Assembly: GCA_040954595.2 (NCBI GenBank)
Contig: JBECUI020000041.1
Span: 41,106-105,105, forward strand
Source of the DNA: Balanoglossus misakiensis
Taxonomy: Eukaryota; Animalia; Hemichordata
DNA length: 64,000 bases
Direction of reading: 5' to 3'
Positions 21,891 through 61,259 of this stretch are shown piece after piece. Made by a program: the position numbers and the translations under genes. The notes under the pieces are model-generated. The model had not been told where the DNA came from. It was given only the letters and a program-made list of their open reading frames with translations, and did no database searches. Position 1 is the first letter of the stretch, and every line of letters begins with the position of its first letter.

Positions 21891-21894
21891 ATAA

Positions 21895-33672: not shown

Positions 33673-33777
33673 CATGAATAAAATCCCCGGGAAGCGAACT
33701 TCAAAGAGCGAATAAGATGCCATGGTATTTTATTGTCGATATAGCATTCGATACTCTCGAAGAGGACAAAATCAAAT

Positions 33778-35391
33778 ATGCACTGCACGACACAGCTTAG
33801 GGCGGGACGGAGTATAGGGAGATTGAGAAAAGACCAGAAAATTTGTTCAATTTCTGCCAACTTGACGGAGAAGACCATGTTCTCCGGGAAGGGGTGCTCA
33901 GGGATTCACGGCTGCCCAATGGATAAAAAGAAGTCGGCAGAATGGGTTTACAAAGCGCATGAGTTTTCTGCAATAATTTCATTGCTCCCGGGTATAAAAC
34001 TTCTGGGGTTTTGCGTTTTCTTCGTCGCCTTTCTGTCCGGTTGTTTTGTTAACAGCGACTACCTCATGATTGCAGCATCAGACAATCCTGTGACCTATCA
34101 GGGATCTACGACTGTTACGGCAAAAAGTAATCAGGATATTGTTTCCTTAAAATGGTTTTTAAACGGTGAGGAACATCAGGAGACAGGGCCCCGATTTCTT
34201 CTTACCGACACAGAGTCTCGGGAACAAAGGCATTCTCTTTATGCGGTCATGCAGGCCGGCGAGAAAAACATCGTCAGCAACACCCTTACCATCACGGTAA
34301 CCGCCTCGGCCCCCTTACTCAATGCCACTGAAAACTTTGTTAACAAGTATCAGTTTCGGCCCGCACTTTCGGTAGCGGTATACCGGAAAGGCGCCCTGGA
34401 TTTCTATTACAACGGAGGGTACAGTTCCTTGGAAACGGATACTAAAGTCAACGAAGAGACACTTCACTATTTGTACAGTATTACCAAAACCTTTATTTCT
34501 GCCGAGATCCTGCGTCTGGTACAGGCGGGCAGCCTTTCCCTAACGGCGACTCTTAACAGCCTGCTCCCCGAAGTAAATCATCTTTACATCAATGATGATG
34601 CGACGGTGGAACAGATGCTCAACCATACGTCAGGGATAGGGGCTTACGTTAACAACCCCCAGCTTTTGGCAGAAAATCCTTTTCGGGAGCAGGCATGGGA
34701 TCCGCATTTATTGTTTGATTTTATTCGTGTGCCGCCCCTGGATCTAGGCTTGTTTACTTACTCTTCTATGAATTATATTCTTTTGGGACTCATCATCGAA
34801 AAAATAACCGCAGAAGATCTGAATATTACGTTGAAGAATGCTTACCTGCAGCCCCTGGGACTGAACTCCCTTAAACTGCACCCTCAGGATGAAGTCAATC
34901 TGCAAAATATTTCCCACCCTCACGTTCATCCTTACACAGATCTGAATTTAGTGGGGGACGGGGTAACTCCCATCGATTTTACCACTATAATACCAGACAG
35001 CATAGATCTGATCGGCAAGAGTTCCTGGTCCGCTGGGGGCATGGTGGGACAGGTAAGAGATGTGGCTCTTTGGGGTTACTACCTCTACAGCCGTCAGGAT
35101 GAGGGAATCGCCAAAGAGATAAAAGACGCCCTCTATTCATCGGCAAGCCCTTTTATCAGCTCCGGACAGACCGGTTACGGTTGGGGACTGCGGGTAATTC
35201 CTTACCAAGACACTTATCTTTTGGGATCATACGGCCGCAGCATAGGTTCAGAAAATCTTCTGTATTACAACCCTGATACCGATACTTCCTTTGCCATCCT
35301 AACATCATCCAACGCCAACAGAAAAGGGCTTCCCAATATTGATGAGCTTTTATTCAGCCTGTACGAAGGAGTAAAGAATGAAGGCCCTTAA
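33778..35391 (+). CDS. Serine hydrolase (beta-lactamase/D-peptidase fold) lipoprotein, start uncertain
   Basis: SITK (SxxK), MLNHTSGI, YSSMNYILLGLIIE, WSAGGM, lipobox FLSGC. The first ~55 codons are repeat-derived. Confidence 0.85.
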   Translation: MHCTTQLRAGRSIGRLRKDQKICSISANLTEKTMFSGKGCSGIHGCPMDKKKSAEWVYKAHEFSAIISLLPGIKLLGFCVFFVAFLSGCFVNSDYLMIAASDNPVTYQGSTTVTAKSNQDIVSLKWFLNGEEHQETGPRFLLTDTESREQRHSLYAVMQAGEKNIVSNTLTITVTASAPLLNATENFVNKYQFRPALSVAVYRKGALDFYYNGGYSSLETDTKVNEETLHYLYSITKTFISAEILRLVQAGSLSLTATLNSLLPEVNHLYINDDATVEQMLNHTSGIGAYVNNPQLLAENPFREQAWDPHLLFDFIRVPPLDLGLFTYSSMNYILLGLIIEKITAEDLNITLKNAYLQPLGLNSLKLHPQDEVNLQNISHPHVHPYTDLNLVGDGVTPIDFTTIIPDSIDLIGKSSWSAGGMVGQVRDVALWGYYLYSRQDEGIAKEIKDALYSSASPFISSGQTGYGWGLRVIPYQDTYLLGSYGRSIGSENLLYYNPDTDTSFAILTSSNANRKGLPNIDELLFSLYEGVKNEGP

Positions 35392-39579: not shown

Positions 39580-41707
39580 GAGGGGAAGCTTCCCGCAGGG
39601 AAAGGGAAATACGCTTCCGCGCCTGGTCTATTTCCAGCACTTTACTTGAACCTGCTGCCGGAGTTTTACAACTTCTCCCGGGTCTTTTACGTAGTGATCC
39701 GCCAAATGGCTGATGTGTACAAGTCCGTCTTGGTGTACCCCCACATCTACAAAAACCCCAAAGGCGGTGATGTTGGTAATTATTCCCGGCAGAATCATAC
39801 CGGGCTTCAGATCTTGTATTTCCTGTACATTCTGATCAAAAGAGAAGGCTTCAAAGAGGGGTCGGGGATCCCGGCTGGGTTTTTCCAGTTCGGCTAAGAT
39901 GTCTTGCAGGGTGGGAAGTCCTACCTTACCCCTGACATAGCGTTCCCAAGGGATGCGCCGGCGTAAGGCGGCATCGGTCATAAGATCTGGGGGCGGCAGT
40001 CCTGGTCCCGGGCTATGGTGTTTATAAGGGGGTAGCGTTCCGTATGGATGGCGCTGGCGTCCAGGGGGTTGGAGCCGTTGCGGATTCTCAGGAAGCCCAC
40101 CGATTGTTCGTAAATTTTCTCTCCCATACGGGGGACTTTTTTAAGAGCTTCCCGATGGGGGAACGGACCGTTTTCCTGGCGATATTTTACAATGTTCTCT
40201 GCCAGTTTCGGCCCTAAACCCGCCACGTAAGTAAGAAGGGAAGTACTGGCTGTGTTCACATCCACACCTACGGCGTTTACTACGCTGCCGACTTCTTCCT
40301 GCAGGCTTTTACCCAGGGCCTTGGGGTCCACATCGTGCTGGTACTGCCCTACGCCCAGGGAGGGGGGATCGATTTTTACCAATTCGGCCAGGGGATCCTG
40401 AAGGCGGCGGGCTATGGACACCGCCCCACGGGACAGTGGGATCTTTACGGGGGAATTCCTGCCGGGCCACATCGCTGGTGGAGTAAACCGAGGCCCCGCT
40501 TTCATCCACCGAAACTACCATCACATCAGGTAGGTTCAGCTTCCGGATGAAATCTTCGGTTTTCCCGTCCGGCTGTCCCGTTTCCCACCGCCACCGCCTG
40601 GATTTTGTTTCTGCGGCACAAATCTTGAAGACAGACGGCCGCCTCTTTTGCCTGTTTCTCACCGTGAGTAGGAAAAATCACCCTTTCTTCCTGAAGCTCA
40701 CCCTGGGCATCCAGGGCCACCACCTTGGCTCCGGTACGGAATCCGGGATCTACCCCCAAGACTCTCTGAGAGCCCAGGGGCGGAGCCATAAGGAGTTCCC
40801 GCAGGTTCCGGGAAAAGACAGCAATGGCCTTTTGTTCCGCTTGTGCCCGGGCTTCTTTTAAGACCTCGTTTTCCAAAGCGGGAGCCAGCAGCCGCTTCCA
40901 GGCTTCCTGTGCGGCGAGCCTTATCTGCCGGGAGGCCTCTCCTTTCCCCTTCACCACCAACCGCTCAAAAGCCTCTATGGCTTGTTGCGGTTCCGGCCGG
41001 GCCTGAACCGTAAGGAAGCCTTCTTTTTTCCCTCGCAGAATCGCCAAAAGACGGTGGGAGGGTATGTGGGCCAGCGGCTCGCTTCTGTCAAAATAATCCT
41101 GAAACTTGGCGGCCTGTTCTGCCTTCTTTTTTATAAGGGTTGATTTTAGAAGACTTTTCTTCCTGAAAAGCTGCCTCTGTTTTTCCCGTATTTCCGGCGT
41201 CTCGCTTATCTGCTCAGCCAGAATATCCCGGGCTCCCTGAAGGACCGTTTCTCTGTCAGGCAAACCCGCCTTTTTATTGATGTAGGCCTGGGGATCAAGG
41301 GGTTTTTCCTTTTGCCGCCAGATTTCCTGAGCCAGGGCTTCCAGGCCCTTTTCCCGGGCCATGTCGCCTCGGGTACGGCGTTGGGGCCGGTAGGGTCGAT
41401 ACAGATCTTCCAGAGAGGCCATAGCCGGAGCCGCTGCTATCTGAGCAGCAAGAGAATCGGTAAGGTGCTTCTGCTCCTTGAGGGATTTTAATATGGCCTT
41501 TTTCCGTTTTTCAAGTCCGCGCAGAGCTTCCAACTGGTCCCTGATATCCCGAAGCGACACCTCGTCCAGAGAGCCTGTGGCTTCTTTGCGGTACCGGGCC
41601 AGGAAAGGGATGGTGGCGCCTTCGTCCAGCAATGCGGCAACAACGGCTACCTGGGAAGGGTTGAGGCCCAGTGTAGCGACGATGGGGGAGATAAGGGATT
41701 CTGTCAT
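39580..41707 (-). pseudogene. tex: Tex transcription accessory protein, multiple frameshifts
   Basis: [63 protein letters not shown] and the S1 domain FGVFVDVGVHQDGLVHIS across 4 ORFs. Confidence 0.93.
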
Positions 41708-42032
41708 GAGGTCCTTGCTACAGTATAAGGGAGAGGGGGGGAGGGAAGGCAAGAGGCAGGTAGGAAAAGCCGTTTCTTAGCCTCCCGAGGGGTTTGAATA
41801 AGTTTACGGTCATTTCAACTCTTTTCTCAGGGAATGTTTGCGGCTTTCCGGTCTCCCCGAACGTCCTGATTCTCCTTTGTCTTAAGATAGTCTGACCGTG
41901 ATTCAAAATTCCCTACTTCCCCAACAAACAGAAAATAATCTTAAAAAAACCTGGCTTTTCCTCTAAAACGTAATAAGCTTTTACACCGTAGTGCCCTTAT
42001 TCAACCAGAAAATCTCAGACCAAAGAAAAAAC

Positions 42033-42100: not shown

Positions 42101-42867
42101 ATGAATTACTCACTCACTCACTCACTCACTCACTCACTCACTCACTCGCGTTAGGACATCATAGAAGAACCCTAGCTAAAACTAAAAAGCTCACCCTTTT
42201 CCCCCTTGCCTTTTACCTTTTGACCTCCTGTAATAACTCCGCCGCTCCTTCCTTTGAAGCGGTCACCTACCGGGACGAAGGCAGGGAAATCAGCATAACT
42301 GGCCTGGCAACACAAGACATCACCATACCCTCAGCCATTCAAAACAAGACCCTTAGCACCATAGCCAAGGCAGCCTTAAAAAACTCCCCCCTCACCAGCC
42401 TAACCATACCAAACACTCTAAGAACCATAGAAGACGAAGCCTTCAACTCAGCTGCTTTCCTGACCGAAGAGCACTTAGGAAACAGCATTACCGGAAGCCT
42501 GGCCTTCGCTGCTACAGCCCTGAACGAGCTGACCATCCTGGCCCCAAGGGCACCCAGCGCCGCAGACAGTCCCGCCGAGGCCTTTGCTTCTTCCCTAACC
42601 GCTATTACCTTAAACTACTCCATCGGCTCCACAGGCTACTCCGAAGCCCCCTGTAGCGGCTTCGGCACACCAAAACTTTTCCTGGACCCCGCTGTCATTG
42701 AAAACCTAGACCCCCAACATCAAAGCATCATCAGCTTCAAAGCCCTACCCGGCGTCACCATCACCATAGAAGCCCGCACCGAAGCCGCCTTTACCGCCGC
42801 CGCTACGGCGGACTCTGCCTCAACGGCAACAGCAACCCAAGACATAACATTGACAGCCCTGACATAG
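42101..42867 (+). CDS. Short BspA-like LRR lipoprotein, out of frame at an (ACTC)10 tract
   Basis: ATG 42101, repeat 42108-42147. Downstream open frame ALGHHRR...LAFYLLTSC then LTSLTIPNTLRTIEDEAF. Truncated paralog of 58993..61259. Confidence 0.8.
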
Positions 42868-46534: not shown

Positions 46535-46820
46535 GAGAGGCCATGTTTCAGCCCAACCAGCAGAAACGCTATACTCTCAGCACAACGGCTTTCGACGTAA
46601 ATCCTTTTGTTAAAATGGGAATGATTATGCCTACCCAAGCCCGGGACTTAGCGCCTGCCCCCCTCACCCTGAAGAAAACGGCCTCAGGGGAATCGCTACC
46701 CTGCTTAGCTGCTTCCTCTAAAAGCAGCAACCCGCTAAGCAGCCACCTGGTAGAATACACAAGCAAATTCCAGCCCTGGGCACGCTTGTCATTACTCTAC
46801 TCCCCCCCTCTTCCCCTGGA
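46535..46820 (+). pseudogene. Diverged partial copy of the 3' region of 43073..44488
   Basis: FQPNQQKRYTLSTTAFDVNPF...KTASGESL...LVEYTSKFQPW, matching about 44120-44400. Confidence 0.85.
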
Positions 46821-47038
46821 TGACGAGCAAACCGTCCATCGAATTGTTGAAGAAGCAAAGCACAAATTGATCGGTGCTTACTGACTGTGAGAGGTGCACA
46901 ATGAGAATAGATCGTCTTGACCTGCTTGCTTATGGTCCATTCACAAAGCAATCCTTAAACCTTGCTGATGGCAACTCTGGATTACATCTAATCTACGGTG
47001 ACAACGAAGCCGGTAAAAGCACCTCGCTTCGAGCCCTT
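46815..47038 (+). repeat. Diverged direct repeat of 14854-15079 (yhaO end / yhaN start)
   Basis: CCTGGATGACGAGCAAACC...GGTGCACAATGAGAATA...TCGAGCCCTT occurs in both places. Confidence 0.9.
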
Positions 47039-50000
47039 ATTGCATGGCTATTCGGTATCCCAGCCAGGACCAACGACAGCTTTCTGCATTCAAATTCGCA
47101 ACTTCGCATTGGGGGGCGATTGCGGCTTACAGATGGTTCAATTCTCGAATTTATAAGAAAAAAGGGAAACAAAGATACATTGCTTAAGTACGCTACCAAT
47201 GATCCCATGGATGAGAGTTCTCTGCTAGCGTTTATTCCAGCAAGTATTGACGAAAACCTATTCACAAAGCTTTGGGGAATCGATCATGAACGATTGATTG
47301 CGGGAGGCCGTGAATTGCTGGAACAATCTGGCGATCTTGGTCAGGCTCTTTTGAGCGCAGCCGTTGGAACCGCAAATCTACGAGAAGTATGGGCTGCAAT
47401 GCAAAACCGTGCAGACGAGATTTTCAAACCGCGAGGGTCCAAGGCTGTTTTGAACCAGGCAATCACCAACTACAGGGATGCCCAGAAAAGAATAAAAGAA
47501 GCAACCTTGCCCGTATCTGACTGGAAGGAATTGCAAAAAAACCTATCCGATACAATCGCAGCTATTAAGAAAATTGAGAAAGATATTGAAGTAAAGAGCA
47601 AGGTGAAAAGTCGCCTGGAGCGGGTTAACCGTGTAAAGGGAGCTCTGGCTGAGCGTCGGAGTGTTTTGGAAAAAATTGAAGCTTTGGGCCAGGTTGATCT
47701 GCTGCCCGAAGATTTTGATGAAAAGAGAAAAACTGCCAGCAGCAATCTTCAATCTGCCAATGAAACCAAGGAGCGCCTGGAGGCAAAACAGCGCAGCTTA
47801 CAAGAGGAATTGGAATCATTAAAGGTTAGAAACGATCTTTTTGAAAACGAGGAAGTTATCTTAACGCTTCATAAGGAACTTGGAGCCGTTGAAAAAATGC
47901 TCAAGGACCGCCCACAGCAAGATGGCAAAAGGCGTTCGCTGCGCAACGAGGCTAAAACACTGCTCAAAACTGTTCGGCCGGATATTGGTCTGGATCAAGC
48001 TGAAGTTTTGCGAAAACTTCTCAATAAAAAAAAATGGATATCAGGATTGGCCCAAAAGCGCAGCTTGTTGGTCCAAAACAAGGAACAGACCGAAGCATCC
48101 ATTAAAGACATTGAAGACGAACGTCAATCTCTGCAAAGCAAATTGGACAACAATTCAGAATCCGACATTGACTTAAAAGAGCTTAAAGCCGCCATGGCAT
48201 CCGCTCGAAAAGCAGGCAATGTCGAGCAGCGTGCAGCCGAAGCAGAGAAACAGGCTTCTGAGGAAAATGAGGCATGCAAAAACGAACTGATGAGGCTGGG
48301 CAGGTACACTGGCTCACTGGATTCCGTCTTGAAGCTGCCCCTGCCCGTATCTGAAACGTTGGACCAGTTCGAAAAAGACAATGACACATTGCTAGAAGAA
48401 TACAAAAATACGATTCGAAAAAAGAAGGAAGTTGACGATGAGAAGAGGCAGGCAGAACAAGATTTAAAGGCGCTTTTGCTTCAAAGAGATCTGCCGACCC
48501 TTGCCGATTTAGAATCCTCACGGAATCTTAGAAACACTGGGTGGCAGCTGATCAAACGCAAGTATATTGAGAAGAGTGAGCTTCTTGAAAACGAGATTTC
48601 GGAGTACGTCCAAAATGACGATTTGCCATCCACTTACGAAAAAAAGATCGAATCTGCCGACCAGGTATCTGATCGCCTCCGTGAAGAAGCTGACCAGGTT
48701 GTTAGACGGGCAGAGCTGGAATCAAAAATAGGAGCGCTGCAATCGAGAATTGAAGAGCTACGGGGCTCCCTTAACAATATAAAGGAAAGACAGGATGACT
48801 TCCAGGCAAGATGGTCCGCTATTTGGGAACCGTTACAGATAGAGGCTGGAACCCCAAGGGAAATGAAGCAGTGGCTTTTGAGAGTAGAGAATCTTATCGA
48901 AAAGGTCCACAAGGCAAAGCGCTACTCAGCAAATCAAAAAAGTCTTGCCGAAGAGTGCGAGCAACTAAAGCAGACTGTTTCAGGTCAAATTTCAAAATTT
49001 GACCCTTCAGCAGATACACAGGATAAGAGCCTTGAATCCCTAATTTCGTTCTGCGAACAAAGAGCCTTCGTTCTGCGAACAAAGAGCCGCGGAAGAAGAA
49101 GCAATTCGCGAAAGACGTCGCCAGAATGAACATTCATTCAAAGAATCCGAAATTCGTCTAAAGAGAAAACAGGATGAATTAAAGTCAATTGGCTCCGATT
49201 TTTTAAGCTGGAAACAAGAATGGAACGAGGCCATAGAGGGTTTGGGCCTAAAGGAAGATGTTCATCCTGAGCATGCCGCAGAAACCCTTGTTAGCCTGCT
49301 TAACTTCTTTGAAAAGTATGACAAGTCAGAGGAATTGCGCAGACGCATGGATGGGATGGATCGGGTAAAAGCGGAATTCGACAAAAGAGTAATGGAATTT
49401 GCCGACAGCATAGGAGAGCAACCAGAAGGCTCTGAGGCATCGGCGATTGCTGCTAAATTGAATAGCGACCTGAACTCAGCGCGTGAAGCTCGAGCAAGCT
49501 TTAGCAAAATAGAAACCCAAATTAAAGAGATTAAACAGGAAATCGAGAATGCCTATATCACCAGCCGAAATTCCAAGAAACACTTGGCCGCACTGAGGAC
49601 CCAAGCCAAGGTCGAAACCGATGAGGAACTCGTGGCAGCTGGTGAGAAATCAAAAGACAAGCGGGACCTACAAAAGAAATTGGATATGCTCGAACAAGAG
49701 CTCAATAGAAACGGCGATGGCCTGAGCATTGAAGAGCTTGAAAAAGAGACAGAAGCATCGGAAAAGGATGTCATAGAAGGTGAGCTTGAAAAAGTCGCCG
49801 ATGAAATAAAGGAGCTGCATAGCGAACGGGACAGATTAAGAGATCAGCGGCAGACGCTCCAAAATGAAATCAAGGCAAAGGATGGCCGTGCCCTGGCGGC
49901 AAACGCATCGGAAGACGCCGAGGAGCACCTCGCCAGCATTGCTGCAAATGCAGAACAATATCTTCGTTTGCAGACCGCCGCACTCATTCTCGAACAGCAA

Positions 50001-50438
50001 ATCGAAAACTACCGAAAAACAAACCAGGCACCGGTTCTGGCCAGAGCTGGTGAATTGTTTTCAAAACTAACCTTGGGCTCCTACGCAGAACTTCGAGACG
50101 AATTGGACGACAAGGGTAATCCCATCTTGCTGGGAGTACGTCCCAACGACAAAGAGCTTACTGTTGACGCCATGAGCGATGGCTCACGTGACCAGCTTTA
50201 TCTTGCCTTACGCCTGGCCACACTTGAACAGCATCTGAGCAAAGGGGAACCCATGCCCTTTGTCGTAGACGACATTCTCATTGGCTTTGATGACAACCGT
50301 ACGCGCGTCTGCTTGGAGGTCCTTGCTGAATTGGCATTAAGCACCCAAGTGCTCCTTTTTACCCATCACAGGCGCATTGTTGAACTCGCCAGCGAAATAG
50401 ACGCCGATGCCGGTGTTTTCACTCATGAATTGGCTTAG
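46901..50438 (+). pseudogene. YhaN/SbcC-like coiled-coil ATPase, split by a 22-bp tandem duplication
   Basis: Walker A YGDNEAGKST, long coiled coil, MSDGSRDQLYLALRLA, PFVVDDILIGFDD, LFTHH. Duplication 49045-49088. Confidence 0.92.
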
Positions 50439-50943: not shown

Positions 50944-51582
50944 ATGAGTTGCAAAGTTTTAAAGAATTATCCTGCGATGAGTCCGTGGATAGGAAAGCGC
51001 TACAGACGGCAAAGAGAAAAACTCCTTGTTGTAGGGGAAAGTCACTATCTCCCAGAAGACTCCACTATTCATCAAATTCCAAGTCAATGGTATCAGTCAT
51101 CCCAGACAGATCTAACGGCCCAAGAAGTGGAATGGATTACAACATCAGGGATAGTTCAATATGCCATGGACAGTGATTTTGGAGACAAAGCTCATTGGAT
51201 ATATAAGAACATTGCCATGGCAATGAATACAATAAGCAATTTGCCAGTTTACAAAGAAAATCTCAACTGTATAGCTTTTAGCAATTTTTTTAAGAGACCT
51301 GCCTTAACCGGAGACAGTTTAGTTTTTAATCAACAGGATATTGATGTGGCAAGTAATTGTTTTATGGAACTTATCCATGATCTCAAACCAAGCATTACTG
51401 TATTCACATCTGCTTTATCTGGGAAATTTGGTGAGGAAATAGCAAGGCAAAATCAATTGCCCCATTTCACTGTTCCACACCCAACAAGCGCATGGTGGAA
51501 CAGAACTTCAAAGAAATACCATGGAAAATCAGGCAAGGATGTATTTGTAGACTTCCTCAATAAGCGTGGGTGGGGAAAATAA
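50944..51582 (+). CDS. Uracil-DNA-glycosylase-superfamily-like protein, copy 1
   Basis: PWIGKRY..KLLVVGESHY (motif-1-like), IAFSNFF, LKPSITVF, VPHPT (motif-2-like). GGAGG RBS. Confidence 0.65.
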   Translation: MSCKVLKNYPAMSPWIGKRYRRQREKLLVVGESHYLPEDSTIHQIPSQWYQSSQTDLTAQEVEWITTSGIVQYAMDSDFGDKAHWIYKNIAMAMNTISNLPVYKENLNCIAFSNFFKRPALTGDSLVFNQQDIDVASNCFMELIHDLKPSITVFTSALSGKFGEEIARQNQLPHFTVPHPTSAWWNRTSKKYHGKSGKDVFVDFLNKRGWGK

Positions 51583-51593
51583 AGGAGAATTAT

Positions 51594-52421
51594 ATGAAAA
51601 GCAGCGAAAACGAATCGGCAATAGAGCAGTTTAACGATATTTCAGACAAAGTGGATAATCAGGATATCCATAAAGTAGCTAATAAAATTGGAACGATGAA
51701 CAGAGGCGCCTTAGTAAAAGTTTGGGGAAGCATTAAGCAGTTGTGGGCTATGGTTAAAGATCCCCAAGCATCTTGGGGAAGTAAAACTACGGCACTTGCT
51801 GCTCTCGTTTACACGATTTCACCTATTGATGCCATTCCTGATATTATTCCTGTTCTAGGACTCACCGATGATGCTGCTATAATAGCCATTGCCGTAGCAT
51901 CCTTAGGAGCAGCTCTTATGAAATATGCAGAAGAAGATCAGGAATCAGAAGAATTACAACAACTAGAAGTTGATACAGATGATGAAACAAGAGAGTTTCT
52001 TGAAGCCTGCATAACAAACTTTTCATCCTTATTATCGCATGTTGCCCATGCTGATGGCGAACTAAGTGCTGAGGAAGAGAAAAGAATCTCTGAATTAATT
52101 GATTATTTCCTTTTTTCAGAAGAGTTTTTAGGAGAGTCTTTAGAAAAATACGACATAACTGAAACAACTGTGAGAAGGAGAATTCGGAAAATTTTCAAGG
52201 ACCCTCTGCCAATAAAAGATATAGCACAATGGGTACGTGAAGAATTCGAAAGCGAGGAAACATTCTATTTCTTTGCCTATGCTGTCGCAAACGCAGACTC
52301 AGACATAAATGAGGATGAAAGAGAATTCCTTGATTATTTTGCGGACTTATTAGAGTTAGCAAAATATGAGAAAAATAAAATTGAGCGGAATTTTGATCGG
52401 GATTGGTTGCAGTCAAAATAA
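51594..52421 (+). CDS. YkvA/DUF1232 plus TerB-like domain protein
   Basis: ALVYTISPIDAIPDIIPVLGLTDDA (DUF1232), HVAHADGELSAEE and VANADSDINEDEREFL (TerB-like). Confidence 0.85.
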   Translation: MKSSENESAIEQFNDISDKVDNQDIHKVANKIGTMNRGALVKVWGSIKQLWAMVKDPQASWGSKTTALAALVYTISPIDAIPDIIPVLGLTDDAAIIAIAVASLGAALMKYAEEDQESEELQQLEVDTDDETREFLEACITNFSSLLSHVAHADGELSAEEEKRISELIDYFLFSEEFLGESLEKYDITETTVRRRIRKIFKDPLPIKDIAQWVREEFESEETFYFFAYAVANADSDINEDEREFLDYFADLLELAKYEKNKIERNFDRDWLQSK

Positions 52422-52458
52422 AATTTTTATGTACTCTGAAGTTGAAAAATCATACCGA

Positions 52459-52561
52459 TCAGGCCCCAGAGTTCAGGACAGACAGAGTTCTGGGGCAAGC
52501 TGATGGCCTGCCAGGAAGAATAAGGCCTGCCTTGAGCACCTTGTCCAAAGGCTCAAGGCAG
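52459..52561 (+). repeat. Multi-hairpin element (copies at about 53086-53192, 54949-55033, 56493-56576, 58055-58152)
   Basis: GCCCCAGAGTTC-loop-GAG(C/T)TCTGGGGC, GGCCT..AGGCC and CTGCCTTGAGC-loop-GCTCAAGGCAG. Confidence 0.85.
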
Positions 52562-52679
52562 AATAATAAGAAATTTTTGCCCGACTTATGGAGCTGGTTC
52601 TTTCTGGAACATTAAAGACGTCGGCTAAGTTCAGTAATGAAATATACAACCTTGGCAGTACAGTTTTAGGAGGTATAGG

Positions 52680-53042
52680 ATGAAAAAAAAAGCAATAATG
52701 TTGCTTTCGATAGGTTTGGCTTTAGCGGTCTTTATTGTCATGGGTGTTTATATTTTTACACTAAGAAGCATGAGCATCGAAACCCAACTTGACTACGATT
52801 CTGAACTAGCAATACGAGAAAGCGGGGTATCGGCTTTAGAAAGCGAGGTATCGGCTTTAGAAAACGAGGTATCGGCTTTAGAAAACGAGGTGTTGGACTT
52901 TGAGAACGAGGTGTCGACTTTAGAAAACGAGGTGTTGGACTTTGAAACAACGATGCAGAAGTTTTATGAATTATTTGGTCTTAATGAATTAAGCGGCCCT
53001 GAATTAAGCACTCTTGAATTATTGCTTTATGGCCAAGATTGA
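52680..53042 (+). CDS. Small membrane-anchored coiled-coil protein with 21-bp heptad repeats
   Basis: N-terminal hydrophobic segment, six VSALENE/VLDFENE-type heptads, AGGAGG RBS. Confidence 0.8.
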   Translation: MKKKAIMLLSIGLALAVFIVMGVYIFTLRSMSIETQLDYDSELAIRESGVSALESEVSALENEVSALENEVLDFENEVSTLENEVLDFETTMQKFYELFGLNELSGPELSTLELLLYGQD

Positions 53043-53339
53043 AATAAGATTCTTTCTGTAATCTAACCTTGAGAAATCAGGCCGATCAGGCCCCAGAGAT
53101 CAGGACATACACAGAGCTCTGGGGTCAAGCTGGATAGCCTGCGAGAAAGAATATTGCCTGCCTTGAGCACCTTGTCCACAGGCTCAAGGCAGAACGAAAT
53201 TGTTTCCTGGCTGCTCAGGGGCAATGCTTAACGAACAAGCAGAACCATGGAGTTAAAATTCTACCCCAGGCGCCTGTCCAGCCTGCTTAAAACGCTAAGG
53301 CACAGAAACCCTGCTGCCTAAACAAAACAAATTGGCTTG

Positions 53340-53779
53340 GAATGCGCTGGTCGCTGCCCTGCGGCAGGGCTTAGCGATCACTGTGTTGGGAGCCATGAAG
53401 CCCCGACGCAGTGCCTCGAATGCTGGGGCAAGACGACAGGAGAGGCTGCTGTTCAGTCGCTGCGGGGCATGCTGCCAGATAGACAGTATCGCAGCCGATG
53501 CGAGCTTCTGTGGAGAGAGAGAAATCGATGGGTTTGAGCATGGCCGGAGAAGTGGCCCACAAAATACCTGAGTATCAGCACACAGCGTTCGAGACTTCTT
53601 CTGAAGTTCAAGAAACCCAGAACAACCTCAGCCCCCTTGCTGGCCATGAAGAGATCTCTTGGAACATCTCCGTCAAAAAGACAGAAACAAGAAACATCGG
53701 GTTGAGCCTGCTTAAAGCTGCTCTAAGGCAAACGCCAAGCATGGTATTGGCCAGATTTTTTAAATTGATGAGACCCTAA
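53340..53779 (+). pseudogene. Possible heavily eroded ISAs1-type transposase remnant
   Basis: Faint motifs FEHGR, QNNL and RNIGLSLLK only. Confidence 0.25.
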
Positions 53780-53800
53780 CCGCTTCCCTTGGAGGATTCC

Positions 53801-54616
53801 ATGACGGTCACAAGGCCGACACCAGAACAGATACGACGCCTCCAAAAGGCTCTCGATGCAGACTCCACCGAGAAAACCCGAACGTTCTGGTCAAAGTACC
53901 TCAAAGGAACGGCAACCTTCCGTGGTGTGCCCATGGCCGGAGTGCGCAAGATTGTCCACGCCTGGTGGAAGCTCGAGTCCCTTCATGACCTGAAGCCGGC
54001 GGCCCAGACAAGGGCGGCGCTTCGGCTCTTTGAGGAGAAGCCCACCGAGGACAAGCTTGCCGGCGTCCTCGCCCTCTCTGAAATTGTGCTCCCCCATCTC
54101 TCAAAGAAGAATCTCCCCGCCTTCGCAGGCCTGTTTTCCAAAGGATACATCTCCGACTGGAACCTCTGCGACTGGTTTTGCGTGAAGGTTCTCGGAAAGA
54201 TGCTCGCATGCGCCGACAAACCTCTCGACCTAGCCGAGGCTATATCGACCTGGTCTGTCTCAAAACCACTCTGGCAGCGCCGGGCGACCTGTGTCGCATT
54301 CGTCAACCATGCCAAGTACGGCGATCTGCGCATCCCAGGGCTCTCTGAGATCATCTTGCACAACGCCGATGCCTTGGTTCACGATCTGGAGCGATTTGCC
54401 CAAACTGGAGTCGGGTGGGTACTCCGCGAGCTCTCACTTGCCAATCGCAGGGCCGTCGTTGCTTTCGCTGAGAAACATGCCGGACTCCTGTCCCGCGAGG
54501 GAATAAAGTACATTGTCGAAAAAATGCCAGCCAACGAAAAAAAACGCCTGCTCTCTCTTCATACTGAAGCATCTGGGGCGGCCAGAAGACTGGCAGGCCC
54601 TATAATTCTCGCCTGA
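53801..54616 (+). CDS. AlkD-like DNA alkylation repair protein
   Basis: FRGVPMAGVR, ISDWNLCDWFC, LWQRRA, QTGVGWVLRE. GC-rich relative to its neighbours. Confidence 0.88.
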   Translation: MTVTRPTPEQIRRLQKALDADSTEKTRTFWSKYLKGTATFRGVPMAGVRKIVHAWWKLESLHDLKPAAQTRAALRLFEEKPTEDKLAGVLALSEIVLPHLSKKNLPAFAGLFSKGYISDWNLCDWFCVKVLGKMLACADKPLDLAEAISTWSVSKPLWQRRATCVAFVNHAKYGDLRIPGLSEIILHNADALVHDLERFAQTGVGWVLRELSLANRRAVVAFAEKHAGLLSREGIKYIVEKMPANEKKRLLSLHTEASGAARRLAGPIILA

Positions 54617-54807
54617 ACCCCGCTACAGCAGGCAAGGTAGACCACAGCCGCATGGCCATCGAGTCGCCCCCAAGACCACAATAAGAAGCCTTTAGACCAC
54701 TTAGGTCAGCAGATCAAGATTGTGAGTATTAGCGTTTCCCAATCAAATTTTCTCCATCATACATACCGTTTGGTACAATGGCATGGCAGTCTTCCTTTTT
54801 TAAGCAG

Positions 54808-54912
54808 GAAAGAACATTCCTTGATTATTTTGCGGACTTATTAAAGTTAGCAAAATAGGAGAAAAATGAAATTGAGCGTGATTTTGATCAGAATTGGTCG
54901 CCGTCAAAATAA
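54808..54912 (+). pseudogene. 3' remnant of a further TerB-like gene
   Basis: GAAAGAACATTCCTTGATTATTTTGCGGACTTATTAAAG...TCAAAATAA with an internal TAG. Confidence 0.8.
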
Positions 54913-55130
54913 AATTTTTCTGTACTCTGAAATTAAAAAATCATACCGCTCAGCTCCCAGAGTTCAGGACAGACAGAGCTCTGGGGCAAGCTGATGGCCT
55001 GCCAGGAAGAATAAGGCCTGCCTTGAGCACCTTTTGGGGGTATAAGTATTGACAAAAAAAAAATTGACTATGACAAGATTTGTCACCCCCCTTGTTTACA
55101 CTCATAGCAATTAGCAATGGAGGTTATAAT

Positions 55131-55769
55131 ATGAGTTGCAAAGTTTTAAAGAATTATCCTGCGATGAGTCCGTGGATAGGAAAGCGCTACAGACGGCAAA
55201 GAGAAAAACTCCTTGTTGTAGGGGAAAGTCACTATCTCCCAGAAGACTCCACTATTCATCAAACTCCAAGTCAATGGTATCAGTCATCCCAGACAGATCT
55301 AACGGCCCAAGAAGTGGAATGGATTACAACATCAGGGATAGTTCAATATGCCATGGACAGTGATTTTGGAGACAAAGCTCATTGGATATATAAGAACATT
55401 GCCATGGCAATGAATACAATAAGCAATTTGCCAGTTTACAAAGAAAATCTCAACTGTATAGCTTTTAGCAATTTTTTTAAGAGACCTGCCTTAACCGGGG
55501 ACAGTTTAATTTTTAATCAACAGGATATTGATGTGGCAAGTAATTGTTTCCTGGAACTTATCCATGATCTCAAACCAAGCATTACTGTATTCACATCTGC
55601 TTTATCTGGGAAATTTGGTGAAGAAATAGCAAGGCAAAATCAATTGCTTCATTTCACTGTTCCACACCCAACAAGCGCATGGTGGAACAGAACTTCAAAG
55701 AAATACCATGGAAAATCAGGCAAGGATGTATTTGTAGACTTCCTCAATAAGCGTGGGTGGGGAAAATAA
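55131..55769 (+). CDS. UDG-superfamily-like protein, copy 2
   Basis: Four amino-acid differences from copy 1. Confidence 0.65.
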   Translation: MSCKVLKNYPAMSPWIGKRYRRQREKLLVVGESHYLPEDSTIHQTPSQWYQSSQTDLTAQEVEWITTSGIVQYAMDSDFGDKAHWIYKNIAMAMNTISNLPVYKENLNCIAFSNFFKRPALTGDSLIFNQQDIDVASNCFLELIHDLKPSITVFTSALSGKFGEEIARQNQLLHFTVPHPTSAWWNRTSKKYHGKSGKDVFVDFLNKRGWGK

Positions 55770-55780
55770 AGGAGAATTAT

Positions 55781-56455
55781 ATGAAAAGCAGCGAAAACGA
55801 AAAAAAAGGAAAAAAAGATGGGTGGGGAAAGGCAGTAAAAGGCTTAGGAGGAATATTAGGTGAAATATTAGATGATGAGGATGAAAACAAGAAAAGCAGC
55901 AAAAAAAGTTGGGTAGAGAAAGCCGTAGAAGGCTTAGGAGAAGTATTAGGTGAAATATTAGATGATGAGGAGGATGAGGATGATGAGGAGGAGGATGAGG
56001 ATGAAGGTGATGAGGAGTCTCTTGAAGCCTGCATAACAAACTTTTCATCATTAATATCACATGTTGCTCATGCTGATGGAGATGTCAGTGAGGAAGAAGG
56101 TGAAAGAATCTCTGAGTTAACTAATTATTTTATTTTTTCAGAAGATTTTTTAGGAGGGACTTTGGAAGCGTACGACCTAACTGAAAAAACTTTGAGAAAG
56201 AGAATTAAAAAGAAAATTCGGGAATCTTTTAAGAAACCTCTTTCAATAAAAAATGTAGCACGATGGGTACGTGAAGAATTCGAAGGCGAAGAACTATTCT
56301 ATTTTTGTGCCTATGCTGTCGCAAACGCAGACTCAGACATAAATAAGAAGGAAAGAAAATTCCTTGATTATTTTGCGGGCTTATTACAGTTAGCAAAATA
56401 TGAGAAAAATGAAATTGAGCGTGATTTTGATCAGAATTGGTCGAAGTCAAAATAA
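55781..56455 (+). CDS. TerB-like protein with repeated and acidic N-terminus
   Basis: Two KAVxGLGxxLGEILDD repeats, a poly-D/E tract, then a TerB-like domain. Confidence 0.8.
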   Translation: MKSSENEKKGKKDGWGKAVKGLGGILGEILDDEDENKKSSKKSWVEKAVEGLGEVLGEILDDEEDEDDEEEDEDEGDEESLEACITNFSSLISHVAHADGDVSEEEGERISELTNYFIFSEDFLGGTLEAYDLTEKTLRKRIKKKIRESFKKPLSIKNVARWVREEFEGEELFYFCAYAVANADSDINKKERKFLDYFAGLLQLAKYEKNEIERDFDQNWSKSK

Positions 56456-56672
56456 AATTTTTCTGTACTCTGAAGTTAAAAAATTATACCGCTCAGACCC
56501 CAGAGTTCAGGACAGACAGAGCTCTGGGGCAAGCTGATGGCCTGCCAGGAAGAATAAGGCCTGCCTTGAGCACCTTTTGGAGGTATAAGTATTGACAAAA
56601 AAAATTAAGCTGTAATAAAATCTATTGTAGTTATTGTTTACCTTCACATCAATTAGCAATGGAGGTTATAAT

Positions 56673-57317
56673 ATGAGTTGAAAATTTTAAAGAATTATCC
56701 TGCGATGAGTCCGTGGATAGGAAAGCGCTACAGACGGCAAAGAGAAAAACTCCTTGTTGTAGGGGAGAGTCACTATCTCCCAGAAGACTCCACTATTCAT
56801 CAAACTCCAAGTCAATGGTATCAGTCATCCCAGACAGATCTAACGGCCCAAGAAGTGGAATGGATTACAACATCAGGGATAGTTCAATATGCCATGGACA
56901 GTGATTTTGGAGACAAAGCTCATTGGATATATAAGAACATTGCCATGGCAATGAATACAATAAGCAATTTGCCAGTTTACAAAGAAAATCTCAACTATAT
57001 AGCTTTTACCAATTTTTTTTAAGAGATCTGCCTTAACCCGGAACAGTTTAATTTTTAATCAACGGGATATTGATGTGGCAAGTAATTGTTTCATGGAACT
57101 TATCCATGATCTCAAACCAAGCATTACTGTATTCATATTTGATACTTCTAAGTAATTTAAATTTGTTGAAGAGATAGCAAGGCAAAATCAATTGCCCCAT
57201 TTCACTGTTCCACACCCAACAAGCGCATGGTGGAACAGAACTTCAAAGAAATACCATGGGAAATCAGGCAAGGATGTATTTGTAGACTTCCTCAATAAGC
57301 GTGGGTGGGGAAAATAA
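56673..57317 (+). pseudogene. UDG-superfamily-like protein, copy 3 (inactivated)
   Basis: ATG AGT TGA at the start, T8 frameshift near 57013-57020, further stops. Confidence 0.8.
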
Positions 57318-57328
57318 AGGAGAATTAT

Positions 57329-58018
57329 ATGAAAAGCAGCGGAAACGAAAAAAAAAGCAAAAAAAAATGGAAGGGAACAGCAGTAAAAGGCTTAGGAGGA
57401 ATATTAGGTGAAATATTAGATGATGTATTAGATGAGGATGATGAAGGAAACAAGAAAAGCAGCAAAAATAAATGGGTTGGGAAAGCAGTAAAAGGCTTAG
57501 GAGAAGTAATAGGTGAAGTATTAGATGCAGATGATGATGATGAGGAGGATTATGATTATGATTATGATGAGGATGAGGAGTCTCTTGAAGCCTGCATAAC
57601 AAACTTTTCATCGTTAATATCACATGTTGCTCATGCTGATGGAGATGTCAGTGAGGAAGAAGGTGAAAGAATCTCTGAGTTAACTAATTATTTTATTTTT
57701 TCAGAAGATTTTTTAGGAGGGTCTTTGGAAGAGTACGACCTAACTGAAAAAACTTTGAGAAGGAGAATTAAAAAGAAAATTCGGGAATCTTTTAAGAAAC
57801 CTCTGCCAATAAAAAATGTAGCACGATGGGTACGTGAAGAATTCGAAGGCGAAGAACTATTCTATTTTTGTGCCTATGCTGTCGCAAACGCAGACTCAGA
57901 CATAAATAAGAAGGAAAGAAAATTCCTTGATTATTTTGCGGACTTATTAAAGTTAGCAGAATATGAGAAAAATGAAATTGAGCGTGATTTTGATCAGAAT
58001 TGGTCGAAGTCAAAATAA
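57329..58018 (+). CDS. TerB-like protein with acidic N-terminus, variant
   Basis: Paralog of 55781 with a different acidic tract (DADDDDEEDYDYDYDEDEE). Confidence 0.8.
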   Translation: MKSSGNEKKSKKKWKGTAVKGLGGILGEILDDVLDEDDEGNKKSSKNKWVGKAVKGLGEVIGEVLDADDDDEEDYDYDYDEDEESLEACITNFSSLISHVAHADGDVSEEEGERISELTNYFIFSEDFLGGSLEEYDLTEKTLRRRIKKKIRESFKKPLPIKNVARWVREEFEGEELFYFCAYAVANADSDINKKERKFLDYFADLLKLAEYEKNEIERDFDQNWSKSK

Positions 58019-58224
58019 AATTTTCTGTACTCTGAAGTTAAAAAATTATACCGCTCAGGCCCCAGAGTTCAGGACAGACAGAGCTCTGGGGCAAGCTGAT
58101 GGCCTGCCAGGAAGAATAAGGCCTGCCTTGAGCACCTTGTCCAAAGGCTCAAAACAGAAGGAACAAAAGCATTGCTCTGGCTGGTCAGAAGGAAAACTCC
58201 TTGCTGTAGGTCACTTCCTATCCC

Positions 58225-58600
58225 ACTCCTACCTTTGGAAGCGGTCAGCTACCAGGATAAAGGCAGGGCAAGCACCATTACCGGCCTGGCAACACAAGAC
58301 AGCAGTGCCCTTGCCTACTCTCCGTTATTCACAGCAATGCGAGGTGAGGGCCATAACCTTTAGAAACTCCACTCTCAGCAGCCTAAGCATCCCCAACAGC
58401 GTAGGGACGACCATGGGAGACAAAGCCTTTACAATGGCCGCCTCCTTGAGCAAAGTGTTGAGGGGAGAGGGCCTCTTCTGCATCGGCACCCTGGCCTTCC
58501 GCCACGACAAGCCCCAACAAGCTCACCGTCCTAGCTCCAAGGGCCCCCAGCTTTGCAGGCAGCCCCGCCCGAAGTCCTCCCCACAGCCTGGAGTCACCCT
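58225..58600 (+). pseudogene. Eroded copy of the BspA-like LRR lipoprotein N-terminal region
   Basis: EAVSYQDKG..TITGLATQDS, NSTLSSLSIPNSVGTTMGDKAF, IGTLAF across frames. Confidence 0.7.
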
Positions 58601-58926
58601 GCCCCATCAAAACCGCAGACCACCACCACCGAAAGCAACTCCGTAACCCTCCAATAACTAACAACCCAACCTGCTACACCCCCACCGACACTAGCACGCT
58701 AGGCTGGTTTGCCAATACCTTTCCCATCAACGGACGGCCAAAAATACTACTTTCTAGCCTCATCAGTCCCCCATTCCCCCCTGAGGCTCCCAAACTTCCC
58801 CCAAAATCAGAGAATACTTCAACAACTTGTTATTTCTTAGCAAGAGTGATAAACTTATAAAAATAATGTAGCTACGCCGTGGAGTAACTCAAACGCCCTC
58901 AAAAAGCTTTGAGTTACAGAATGGAC

Positions 58927-58992: not shown

Positions 58993-61259
58993 ATGAATAT
59001 ATCTATAAACTCACTCACTCACTCACTCACTCACTCACTCACTCACTCACTCACTCACTCACTCACTCACTTCCCCGCGTAAGAGATCAAAGAAAAACCT
59101 TAGCTGAGAAAGTCACCCTTTTACCCCTTGCCTTCTACCTGATAACTTCCTGCAGCAACATCACACCCCCCCCTACCTTCGAGGCGCTTACCTACCAGGA
59201 CGAAGGCACAGAAATCACCATTACCGGCCTGGCAAAGCAAGACAGCACCACCCTCATCATCCCCCGTTTCATTTATAACAAGCCCGTTACGACCATTGCC
59301 AAGGCAGCCTTTAAAAACTCTACTTTTACAACCCTAAGCATCCCGGATAGCGTCAAAACCATCGAAGATGAAGCCTTCAATTCAGCCGAATCCCTCGCTG
59401 AGGTGCACATAGGTAAGGGCATAAGCTCCATCGGCAATCTGGCCTTCGCCGGAACAGCCCTCAACAAGCTCAGCATCCTGGCCCCAAGGGCCCCCAGTTT
59501 TGCTGGAAGCCTGGCCGAAGCCTTTCCTCCTTCCCTAACGGGAATCACCCTGAACTACCCCATCGGAGCCGCAGGTTACTCAGAAGAGCCCTGGAGCAAC
59601 TTCGGCAAGCAAATTCAGTTCCTGGAAGCCGATGTCATTGAAAACATAAGCCAGGCTTATCAAAGTCTCATCATTACCCTCAAAGCCCTACCCGGCCTCA
59701 CCCTCACCGTAGAAGCCCACACCGAAGCCGCCTTCTCAGGCGAAGCTGCCGCAAGGGCAAACTCAGACCCAAGGGCAACAACTTCCCAAAACCTAACCTT
59801 AAGCAGCCTCACCAACGGAACCCCCTATTACCTGCGGGCCAGGGCTTACAAGGACAACCCGGAGAATCCAACCGAATGGATAAATATTCCCAGTTCCTAC
59901 TCTCCCCGCGGCATCTTCATTACCGATGCCACCCCCCGTTCTGGAAAAATCACTGCTGAAATTCTCTCCTCTGAAGGGGTGGAAGCAAAACTCCAGGCAT
60001 TCACCGACAAGGACTTTAAGCTTATGGTAAAGGAAACCTCCTTTACCGGAACCCTTGAAGCTCAATCGCTGGAACTATACGGACTCAGCAATGAAACGCC
60101 CTACTACCTGCGTGCCCTTCTCAGCGACGGCAGCGCTGAATACCGCTACTCCACCCCCCTCATTCCCGCCGCCGAGGGCAGGCAGTACATCCACCGCCTG
60201 AGCGAACTGGCCAAAATCGGAGTGGATAGGGAAAACTACCCCGATACCTGGAACTACGAGCTAAGAATGGACCTCAACTTTGCCGACGCCAACAACGACG
60301 GGATTATGGACGACCCCTTCGACAGCGACAACAATGCCGAAAACGGTAACTGGAGGCCCCTTAGCCCTGGAATCTTTAACGGTGGCAACTACCAAAGCGG
60401 CGGATATTCCGGGAGCTTTGACGGTAGGAACCACAGCATTGAGGGAATGAACATCACGACACCTGAAGTCGATCGTGTCGGTTTCTTCAGTGTCACGGCT
60501 TCAGAAGGGAAAATCGAGAATCTGGGACTGCTGGGAAGCTCTGTCACGGGGGGGAGCAATACCGTAGGGGCTTTGGTTGCTTTTAGCCAAGGCAGCATAA
60601 CAGGAAGCTATGCCACAGGAGCTGTCTCGGGGCAGAGCGGTAACGTGGGTGGCTTGGTCGGCCTCAACCAAGGCAGCATAACAAAGAGCTATACCGCCGC
60701 AGAGCTTATGGGGTCCCGTAGCGTGGGTGCTTTGGTTGGAAGGAATCATGGTAGCATAACCAGCAGCTATGCCACCGGAAACGTCTCGGGCGACTCTTAC
60801 CTAGGTGGCTTGGTCGGAAGAGAACAGGGCACCATACAGGGAAGCTATGCCACCGGTGCTGTCTCGGGCAATAATACCCTAGGTGCCTTGGTCGGCAATC
60901 TGAGCAGAGGTAGCATAAGGGATAGCTATGCCACCGGAGACGTCTCAGGCAGCTCCTACCTAGGTGGCCTGGTTGGATTCTCCAGTGGTTCCATAACGAA
61001 CAGCTACCGCTATGAGAACCAGAATATCACTGACGCTAACGGCAATACCCACACCCCCACAAACACCCTAGGCAGCAGTGTAAATCTGGAACAACTCAAA
61101 AACCCAAGCTGGTACACCACAGACAGCCTGGGCTGGTCCACAGAAGTCTGGAGCATCACAAGGGGCCTGGTAGACGGGACAATCCCCGCCCATCCCCACA
61201 TACTCCAAACAGGAACAAACACAGTCATCCCCAACCAGCCCAACTCTCCCATCCCCTAG
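58993..61259 (+). CDS. LRR / FN3-like / GLUG-repeat surface lipoprotein, out of frame at an (ACTC)15 tract
   Basis: Repeat 59009-59068. Open frame from 59070 (LPRVRDQ...LAFYLITSC) continues into ORF 59403-61259 with YSGSFDGRNHSI and repeated VGGLVG..SYATG (GLUG). Confidence 0.85.

What the first reader, a model, noticed from the sequence alone, without database searches (positions are those of the whole stretch)
50944..58215. Amplified two-gene module: UDG-like protein plus TerB-like protein with swapped N-termini (candidate new defence system)
Seen: three tandem copies of the pair, 11 bp apart in each, plus remnants of more (54808, ~58190). The glycosylase-like gene is nearly constant. The partner keeps MKSS.NE and the TerB-like domain but exchanges its N-terminus (DUF1232 versus repeated helices with poly-acidic tracts). 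Known: UDG-superfamily enzymes can be antiviral by excising modified phage bases (Brig1), and TerB-like domains occur in stress and defence loci. Context includes AlkD, yhaN and type I R-M. Inference: a glycosylase effector with a variable sensor or inhibitor partner. I do not recognise this pairing.
Basis: partly seen in the sequence, partly recalled or inferred. Interest (0 to 1): 0.8.

Follow-up and report, generated by a model that had tools for sequence, protein, structure and literature searches.

The report
Amplified defence-type glycosylase with TerB neighbour
A tandemly copied, partly decayed gene pair encodes an uncharacterised enzyme predicted to have the uracil-DNA-glycosylase fold, which likely cuts unusual bases out of invading phage DNA by itself, plus a TerB-type neighbour that sits beside it in only one close relative and is therefore probably a passenger rather than the second half of a new defence system.

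Summary
The tandem pair is real but more decayed than reported: two intact glycosylase genes, one pseudogene, three intact TerB-domain genes and one TerB remnant. The upstream protein is predicted to have the UDG fold (pLDDT 97.7; best matches are UDG-superfamily enzymes, Z about 10.8). It belongs to an unnamed family of 562 clusters with GESHY, invariant Asn114 and HP motifs and no Fe-S cysteines. Elsewhere it occurs without TerB: as a single-gene Vibrio integron cassette, between hsdS and hsdR, beside GmrSD, or behind WYL regulators. Strong defence-HMM hits are enriched around it (23 of 150 ORFs, against 2 of 95 around nth). TerB is adjacent in 0 of 76 genomes and 1 of 101 loci. That one locus is the closest relative, with the genes in reverse order. 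The N-terminal 'swap' is one loss of an ancestral DUF1232 segment followed by duplication, and the shared MKSS.NE marks the edge of a homogenised DNA tract. The best reading is a stand-alone Brig-like anti-phage glycosylase, predicted to act on a uracil- or thymine-type base, co-amplified with a neighbour in a duplication-prone genome. A true two-gene system is not excluded (about 20%). Membership in Brig2 could not be tested. The scan noted other UDG-like defence candidates before, none with this sequence.

The parts
50944..51582 (+). Glycosylase copy 1 (U1), 212 aa, intact; predicted UDG-superfamily fold; motifs G31-E-S-H-Y35, N114-x-F-x-R-P-A, H179-P180
51594..52421 (+). Partner 1 (T1), 275 aa: DUF1232 hydrophobic segment, acidic linker, TerB/DUF533 domain; ancestral type (60% identical over its length to the L081 protein)
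52416..52563 (+). Hairpin-rich ~150-nt downstream element; further copies at 53042-53198, 54907-55033, 56450-56576 and 58013-58163; no Rfam match
52680..53042 (+). 120-aa gene with a hydrophobic N-terminus and a 7-aa-repeat coiled coil, followed by the same downstream element; inserted in the array
53789..54616 (+). AlkD-like DNA alkylation repair gene (PF08713), 57% GC against 35-39% for the array genes
54801..54912 (+). T0: 3' remnant of a type-2/3 TerB gene with an internal stop (54856-54858); 96% like T2/T3 and 92% like T1
55131..55769 (+). Glycosylase copy 2 (U2), intact, 8 nt different from U1
55781..56455 (+). Partner 2 (T2), 224 aa: two ~30-aa helix/acidic repeats with low model confidence, then a TerB domain; no hydrophobic segment
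56673..57317 (+). Glycosylase copy 3 (U3), pseudogene with three separate lesions
57329..58018 (+). Partner 3 (T3), 229 aa, intact; recent duplicate of T2
58180..58217 (+). Short weak match to the glycosylase GESHY region; doubtful remnant

Best explanation
The upstream gene encodes a protein predicted to have the uracil-DNA-glycosylase fold that likely works alone as an anti-phage enzyme, predicted to flip out and excise a uracil- or thymine-type modified base from incoming phage DNA, while the TerB gene is probably a neighbour that was copied along with it by local tandem duplication. Shown: the copy structure and decay, the motif conservation across the family, the family's mobile and defence-rich neighbourhoods, the absence of adjacent TerB in the 76 genomes compared, and the two-type partner history. 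Inferred: enzymatic activity; anti-phage role, by analogy with Brig1-3; and substrate class. The invariant Asn114 sits where repair UDGs have the Asn that reads the uracil edge, whereas the cytosine-targeting Brig1 and Brig3 are reported with acidic pocket residues (E147, D127). Inferred history: an old glycosylase/DUF1232-TerB neighbourhood was duplicated; one lineage lost the DUF1232 segment and gained a doubled acidic helix; that unit was copied again; the glycosylase copies were homogenised; copy 3 and T0 decayed.
For: Fold: AF2 pLDDT 97.7, pTM 0.93. All Foldseek rows shown are UDG-superfamily, with weak E-values (best 7.5e-4). VIA-align ranks 1-7 are UDGs (1L9G Z 10.8, rmsd 3.3 over 150 residues). 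ESM-Atlas neighbours at 0.96 are named UDG-like. Motifs: S33 and N114 136 of 136, E32 135, H179 134, R118 134, W185 135; no conserved Fe-S cysteines. Stand-alone use: in L004 (Vibrio rotiferianus) the gene alone lies between two ~122-nt attC/VCR-like repeats, and near-identical copies occur in two Photobacterium genomes. Neighbours among 131 flanking ORFs from 80 loci: TerB 0, WYL 8, GmrSD 6, hsdS-gene-hsdR 3, dynamin-like 2, FRG 2 (several of these come from one clade each). PADLOC hits at E<=1e-20: 23 of 150 nearest ORFs against 2 of 95 around nth in the same genomes, Fisher p=0.0008; by locus 18 of 70 against 2 of 30, p=0.03. Patchy distribution: 8 of 401 Spirochaetota genomes match, 3 over the full length. 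TerB adjacent in 0 of 76 genomes, although 42 of them have a TerB match somewhere. The window has many unrelated tandem duplications and broken genes (lipoprotein array 24.5-33.9 kb, repeats at 12.3-13.4 kb, split yhaN and tex), so amplification needs no special cause.
Against: No activity has been measured. The closest relative L081 has both genes adjacent with synonymous sites saturated (dS about 2.2 for TerB), so the linkage is old. The 11-nt gap with a Shine-Dalgarno sequence fits one operon. A distant member (L078) has a small DUF1232 gene directly downstream, and L038 has a WYL / TerB-dynamin / dynamin / FRG / glycosylase run. Many family members lie among housekeeping genes. The PADLOC comparison uses single-protein hits, hand-read counts and unequal ORF filters; with the control limited to ORFs of 200 aa or more p=0.017, and at E<=1e-6 it is 34 of 150 against 9 of 95. 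In bioRxiv 10.1101/2025.10.29.685425, 6 of 7 tested integron UDG-like proteins gave no protection. The match of Asn114 to the uracil-reading Asn rests on topology and motif by eye; the profile comparison with family 4 is weak and covers only the C-terminal half (probability 37%).
Confidence: 0.5

Rival explanations
1. A genuine, clade-restricted two-gene system. The DUF1232-TerB protein regulates the glycosylase, either as a membrane-associated sensor or anchor, or, in its derived soluble acidic form, as a DNA-mimic-like inhibitor that protects the host.
For: Both genes are adjacent in the closest relative (57% and 60% identity, saturated dS), and the full-length DUF1232-TerB fusion was found only in the window and L081. 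They are co-amplified with an 11-nt gap. In unit 3 the enzyme is dead while the partner is intact, as expected for an orphaned antitoxin. All partners are strongly acidic (57-59 D+E residues); acidic DNA mimics such as Ugi inhibit UDGs (recalled). Precedents: Brig3 with BapA (PMC13160076, passages); TerB in Dionysus, Bunzi and Shango (10.1101/2025.09.30.679545, passages). DUF1232 gene downstream in L078.
Against: Only 1 of 101 loci has the pair, in reverse order and 334 nt apart. The family works as a one-gene cassette elsewhere. Related TerB proteins occur without the glycosylase in many spirochaete genomes. One intact partner beside one dead enzyme is a single event.
Confidence: 0.2
2. An accessory DNA-repair glycosylase that removes damaged or deaminated bases from the host's own DNA, amplified with stress genes (TerB, AlkD, YhaN/YhaO).
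For: It has the UDG fold with the HP motif and Asn retained. AlkD and YhaN are neighbours. A plasmid homologue sits near TerD, AIM24 and HNH genes. WYL regulators also control DNA-damage genes (search listing).
Against: The family is patchy and mobile and has more defence neighbours than the repair gene nth. AlkD differs in GC (57% against 39%) and interrupts the array. AlkD and YhaN homologues were not found in the 80 genome loci.
Confidence: 0.2
3. The array is a neutral by-product of a duplication-prone, decaying genome, and the extra copies and acidic partners have no selected role.
For: One pseudogene and one remnant among four units; many other duplications and broken genes in the window. 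T2 vs T3 dN is about equal to dS (0.021 vs 0.023; few changes).
Against: T1 vs T2/T3 TerB domains show dN below dS (0.13-0.15 vs 0.25-0.26), and both genes are under purifying selection against L081. This rival speaks to the extra copies, not to the function of the family.
Confidence: 0.1

Closest known systems
Brig2 (integron-encoded UDG-fold defence glycosylase against phages with hypermodified thymidine; bioRxiv 10.1101/2025.10.29.685425)
   Same: UDG-like fold, single-gene Vibrionaceae integron cassette (L004 here), several hundred homologues across phyla, AT-rich mobile or defence contexts
   Different: The Brig2 sequence is in supplements that were closed, so identity could not be tested. 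This family may be Brig2, one of the other ten UDG-like clusters of that paper, or none. No TerB partner is mentioned in its main text.
Brig1 (PMC11078745) and Brig3-BapA (PMC13160076)
   Same: UDG-superfamily enzymes in defence islands that excise modified bases; Brig3 shows that such an enzyme can have an operonic helper
   Different: They target glucosyl-hmC and hmC. Brig3's pocket includes N50-P51-S52, E55 and D127, and Brig1's includes Y121 and E147, against E32-S33-H34-Y35 and invariant N114 here. BapA is a glucosyl hydrolase, not a TerB protein. Brig1 homologues are described as found in Actinobacteria (passage cut at its start).
Family 4 UDG (TIGR00758; Thermotoga 1L9G, UdgX 6AIL)
   Same: Best structural matches (Z 10.6-10.8); GE in motif A, Asn followed by RP, and HP motif B
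   Different: Motif A is GESHY, not GE[AG]PG; none of the Fe-S cysteines is conserved; 10-12% identity; patchy and mobile rather than housekeeping
TerB-containing defence systems Dionysus (DinB), Bunzi (BnzA), Shango (SngA)
   Same: A TerB domain in a candidate defence locus
   Different: Dionysus pairs TerB with a pore-forming and a transmembrane protein; 'glycosylase' does not occur in that paper's main text; the window partners match no PADLOC model

Membership tests
UDG superfamily | Alpha/beta UDG fold with a central parallel sheet | tested here: met
   Predicted model; weak PF03167 hits in 8 of 136 members
UDG superfamily | Motif A after strand 1, Asn at the end of strand 2, HP motif B | tested here: met
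   G31-Y35 follows strand 27-31, N114 ends strand 110-114, H179-P180 follows strand 174-176; the motif layout is recalled and checked against family-4 alignment A8
UDG superfamily | Base-excision activity | not testable with these tools
   needs an assay
Family 4 UDG | GE[AG]PG motif A and 4Fe-4S cysteines | tested here: not met
   GESHY; no cysteine column at family-4 positions; no TIGR00758 hit
Brig1 / Brig3 | Pocket residues as published (Brig3 N50-P51-S52, E55, D127; Brig1 Y121, E147) | tested here: inconclusive
   Residue labels look unlike E32-S33-H34 and N114, but no sequence or structure of Brig1 or Brig3 was available for alignment (none listed)
Brig2 | Sequence homology to Brig2 | not testable with these tools
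   bioRxiv supplements closed; the main text gives no sequence or accession in the parts read
Brig-type defence glycosylases | Mobile, defence-island or integron location | tested here: met
Brig-type defence glycosylases | Protection against modified-base phages | not testable with these tools
   needs plaque assays
TerB / DUF533 domain proteins | PF05099 or PF04391 above the gathering cut-off; TerB fold | tested here: met
   top Foldseek row 2OU3, a tellurite-resistance protein, probability 1.0 but E 0.11
Conserved two-gene defence system | Gene pair kept together across independent lineages | tested here: not met
   Adjacent in 0 of 76 genomes and 1 of 101 loci, that one being the sister sequence; 75 of the 101 loci have more than 1 kb on both sides
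Catalogued PADLOC systems (2023) | HMM match of either gene | tested here: not met

The most novel reading that the evidence does not exclude
A small clade has turned a normally stand-alone, uncharacterised anti-phage glycosylase into a regulated two-gene unit. A membrane-linked DUF1232-TerB protein controls the enzyme, and a duplicated copy has evolved into a soluble, acidic DNA-mimic-like inhibitor. I found no host-encoded TerB regulator of a base-excision defence enzyme in the searches run.
Probability: 0.15. Interest if true: 0.75.

Novelty: new member of a known kind. Interest (0 to 1): 0.42.

Why it matters
The glycosylase family is wide (562 clusters at 50% identity), has no Pfam, NCBIfam or PADLOC model and no solved relative by sequence, and sits in defence slots. 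It is a compact, directly testable candidate for another modified-base-specific antiviral glycosylase, with a concrete substrate prediction. Such enzymes are also useful reagents for mapping base modifications. The TerB pairing matters only if the partner proves to regulate the enzyme; otherwise the array is a local duplication.

Tried and rejected
Co-folding U2 with T2 returned no verdict; it is no evidence either way. No relatives were found in viral contigs or annotated phages, and there was one plasmid hit. No solved relative by sequence or profile. A word-based search with the acidic partner T2 found nothing at E<=0.001. The idea that the downstream repeat is an attC site or a known RNA was dropped: no Rfam match apart from one chance-level hit (E 0.9), no copies outside the array or in other loci, and no attC-like ends by eye. 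Promoter and terminator scans were at chance level (18 vs 14.2 and 9 vs 9.3). The origin of the acidic N-terminus is unresolved. A 45-nt helix unit matches the last DUF1232 helix at DNA level (0 of 2000 shuffles, unit chosen after inspection), but whole-segment tests were not clear (6-255 of 500 shuffles reach the score), and the unrelated short TerB protein P0174 has a similar acidic start (0 of 1000 for T2, 28 of 1000 for T3). Sequencing runs: no RNA holder listed. One DNA run, X1, which may be the source sample, has contigs over units 1 and 2 and T3 but none over U3 or the unique part of T2; missing cover proves nothing, so copy-number variation is unproven. Literature searches found no paper with TerB + uracil DNA glycosylase + operon + defense (0 papers) and none with two of DUF1232/YkvA/TerB/DUF533 (0). 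GESHY returned 52 papers, and the 15 listed were unrelated. PMC13069673 does not mention glycosylase, UDG, TerB or DUF1232 in its main text. The tree is the quick version (no bootstrap). No whole genome is held for the window, so other copies elsewhere in the genome could not be checked.
Full report
Observation. The window is bacterial-type DNA at 48% GC, and the array genes are 35-39% GC. It holds three glycosylase-to-partner units, each with an 11-nt gap. U1 (50944-51582) and U2 (55131-55769) are intact and differ at 8 nt. U3 (56673-57317) has a stop at codon 3, a +1 frameshift and a replaced patch with a further stop. T1 is DUF1232+TerB; T2 and T3 are TerB/DUF533 with a doubled helix-acidic unit and no hydrophobic segment. 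A TerB 3' remnant (T0) precedes U2. A ~150-nt hairpin-rich element follows each partner and a small coiled-coil gene. The 58190 'remnant' is marginal. In DNA run X1, which may be the source sample, one 694-nt contig with U1-type letters lies on U2 at depth 20.9 against 9.5-11.6 for most flanking contigs, which fits two collapsed copies; contig depth is only a hint.

History of the array. U1 vs U2 dS is 0.032, T1 vs T2/T3 TerB dS is 0.25-0.26, and T2 vs T3 dS is 0.023. The near-identical tract of units 1 and 2 ends 33 nt after the glycosylase stop, just past MKSSENE. The glycosylase region was therefore copied or homogenised after the partners diverged (inference), and the shared heptapeptide is the edge of that tract. 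The only full-length relative of T1 found is P0155 from locus L081, 60% identical and also DUF1232-TerB. With it as outgroup, DUF1232 is ancestral and the acidic type arose once (inference). Whether it arose by decay of the DUF1232 helices or by recombination with a P0174-like gene is unresolved. The rest of the window shows many other tandem duplications and broken genes.

The enzyme. It has no Pfam, NCBIfam or PADLOC match of note and no solved relative by sequence. A full-library search finds 562 clusters at E<=0.001. The AF2 model from 136 sequences has pLDDT 97.7. All listed Foldseek rows are UDG-superfamily, with weak E-values, and VIA-align ranks family-4 UDG, UdgX, SMUG1 and MUG first (Z 8.7-10.8). 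Conserved residues are E32 (135 of 136), S33 (136), H34 and Y35 (130 each), N114 (136), R118 (134), D132 (134), H179 (134) and W185 (135), with no Fe-S cysteines. By topology N114 corresponds to the Asn that reads the base edge in repair UDGs (N82 in S. tokodaii, PMC11078745 section 10). Brig1 has E147 at that place according to the same section, and Brig3 has D127 in its pocket (PMC13160076 section 8); both act on cytosine derivatives. I therefore predict a uracil- or thymine-type substrate. This is an inference, and the profile match to family 4 is weak.

Neighbourhoods. I fetched 80 genome loci (best 80 of 89) and 21 metagenome loci. Neighbours vary widely. Among 131 flanking same-strand ORFs from the 80 loci, Pfam finds TerB 0 times, WYL 8, GmrSD 6, hsdS-gene-hsdR 3, dynamin-like 2, FRG 2 and DUF1232 once; several groups are single clades. 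In L004 the gene is a one-gene cassette between attC/VCR-like repeats (the VCR pattern is recalled). PADLOC models hit 23 of the 150 nearest ORFs (of 335 selected) at E<=1e-20, against 2 of 95 ORFs around nth (30 of 50 nth loci); p=0.0008, or 0.017 with matched length filters, and by locus 18 of 70 against 2 of 30. These are single-protein hits counted by hand. The family matches 8 of 401 sampled Spirochaetota genomes.

The pairing. Comparing positions in 76 genomes (80 loci less four from genomes already counted), TerB is adjacent in none, within 5 kb in one (L038: WYL, TerB-dynamin, dynamin, FRG, glycosylase) and at about 20 kb in one; 42 of 76 have TerB somewhere. A profile of the partners' TerB domain hits 1 of 112 loci. 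That locus, L081, holds the sister glycosylase (57%) with the DUF1232-TerB gene 334 nt upstream, and synonymous sites are saturated. The link is therefore old but, as far as seen, confined to two sister sequences. The contexts of the two other clade members are unknown. A small DUF1232 gene directly follows the distant member in L078, a weak hint found after the fact.

Comparison with known systems. It works like Brig1-3: UDG-fold glycosylases in mobile defence loci. Papers seen: PMC11078745 (passages, section 10, supplement list and part 1 of file 2); PMC13160076 (passages, section 8); bioRxiv 10.1101/2025.10.29.685425 (parts 1-4 of 6 and passages; supplements closed). That last paper reports 11 UDG-like integron clusters, 7 tested and 1 active (Brig2, against thymidine-modified phages, more than 500 homologues). 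This family could be Brig2 or one of the others; the closed supplements bear directly on novelty. It is not family 4 UDG. TerB occurs in Dionysus, Bunzi and Shango (10.1101/2025.09.30.679545, passages), with no glycosylase mentioned there. Searches for the pairing found nothing. Earlier scan notes describe other UDG-like defence candidates, including WYL-linked ones, but none with this sequence.

Verdict. The glycosylase is a credible, uncharacterised defence-type enzyme (new member of a known kind). The two-gene, swappable-sensor reading is not supported as a general system. It stays possible as a clade-specific arrangement (about 0.2, and 0.15 for the boldest form). Interest 0.42.

Noticed in passing
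L081:2763-4593: Closest relative: DUF1232-TerB gene then glycosylase, the reverse of the window order; a divergent 733-aa gene upstream has no Pfam match and looks by eye like a type I R-M-related protein.
   Followed up: partly
L057, L074, L080: The glycosylase family occupies the slot between hsdS and hsdR of type I R-M operons in Bacteroidota.
   Followed up: partly
L005, L006, L010, L012, L038, L062: Recurrent combinations of WYL regulator, this glycosylase, LeoA-like dynamin and FRG genes; in L038 the first dynamin has an N-terminal TerB domain. Possibly a separate defence locus type.
   Followed up: partly
L002, L003, L004: Near-identical glycosylase genes in Vibrio rotiferianus (integron cassette) and two Photobacterium species flanked by a different repeat family, suggesting recent transfer.
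   Followed up: partly
window 46874-50438 and 13550-15079: yhaN is split at a 22-nt tandem duplication near 49045 that is absent from a contig of run X1. Its usual partner, a YhaO-like phosphoesterase, lies 33 kb upstream, and the tail of that gene is duplicated at 46815-47038.
   Followed up: partly
window 19128-33941: Tandem array of unnamed ~320-330-aa lipoprotein-like genes in two alternating types, with a 3-kb near-perfect duplication; no Pfam match for the one member scanned.
   Followed up: no
window 12318-13389: Array of ~128-150-nt repeats, with related copies near 1295-1414.
   Followed up: no
window 2277-2451: Frameshifted fragment of a second AlkD-like gene.
   Followed up: no
window 39978-41752, 42108-42867, 58222-58618, 59001-59071: Split tex gene; degenerate copies of a BspA-like leucine-rich-repeat surface gene; an (ACTC)n microsatellite upstream of the GLUG-repeat gene.
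   Followed up: no
whole window: Earlier scan notes describe other pieces of the same assembly as animal DNA, so this window probably comes from an associated bacterium, likely a spirochaete (inferred from lipoprotein and BspA content, not tested).
   Followed up: no
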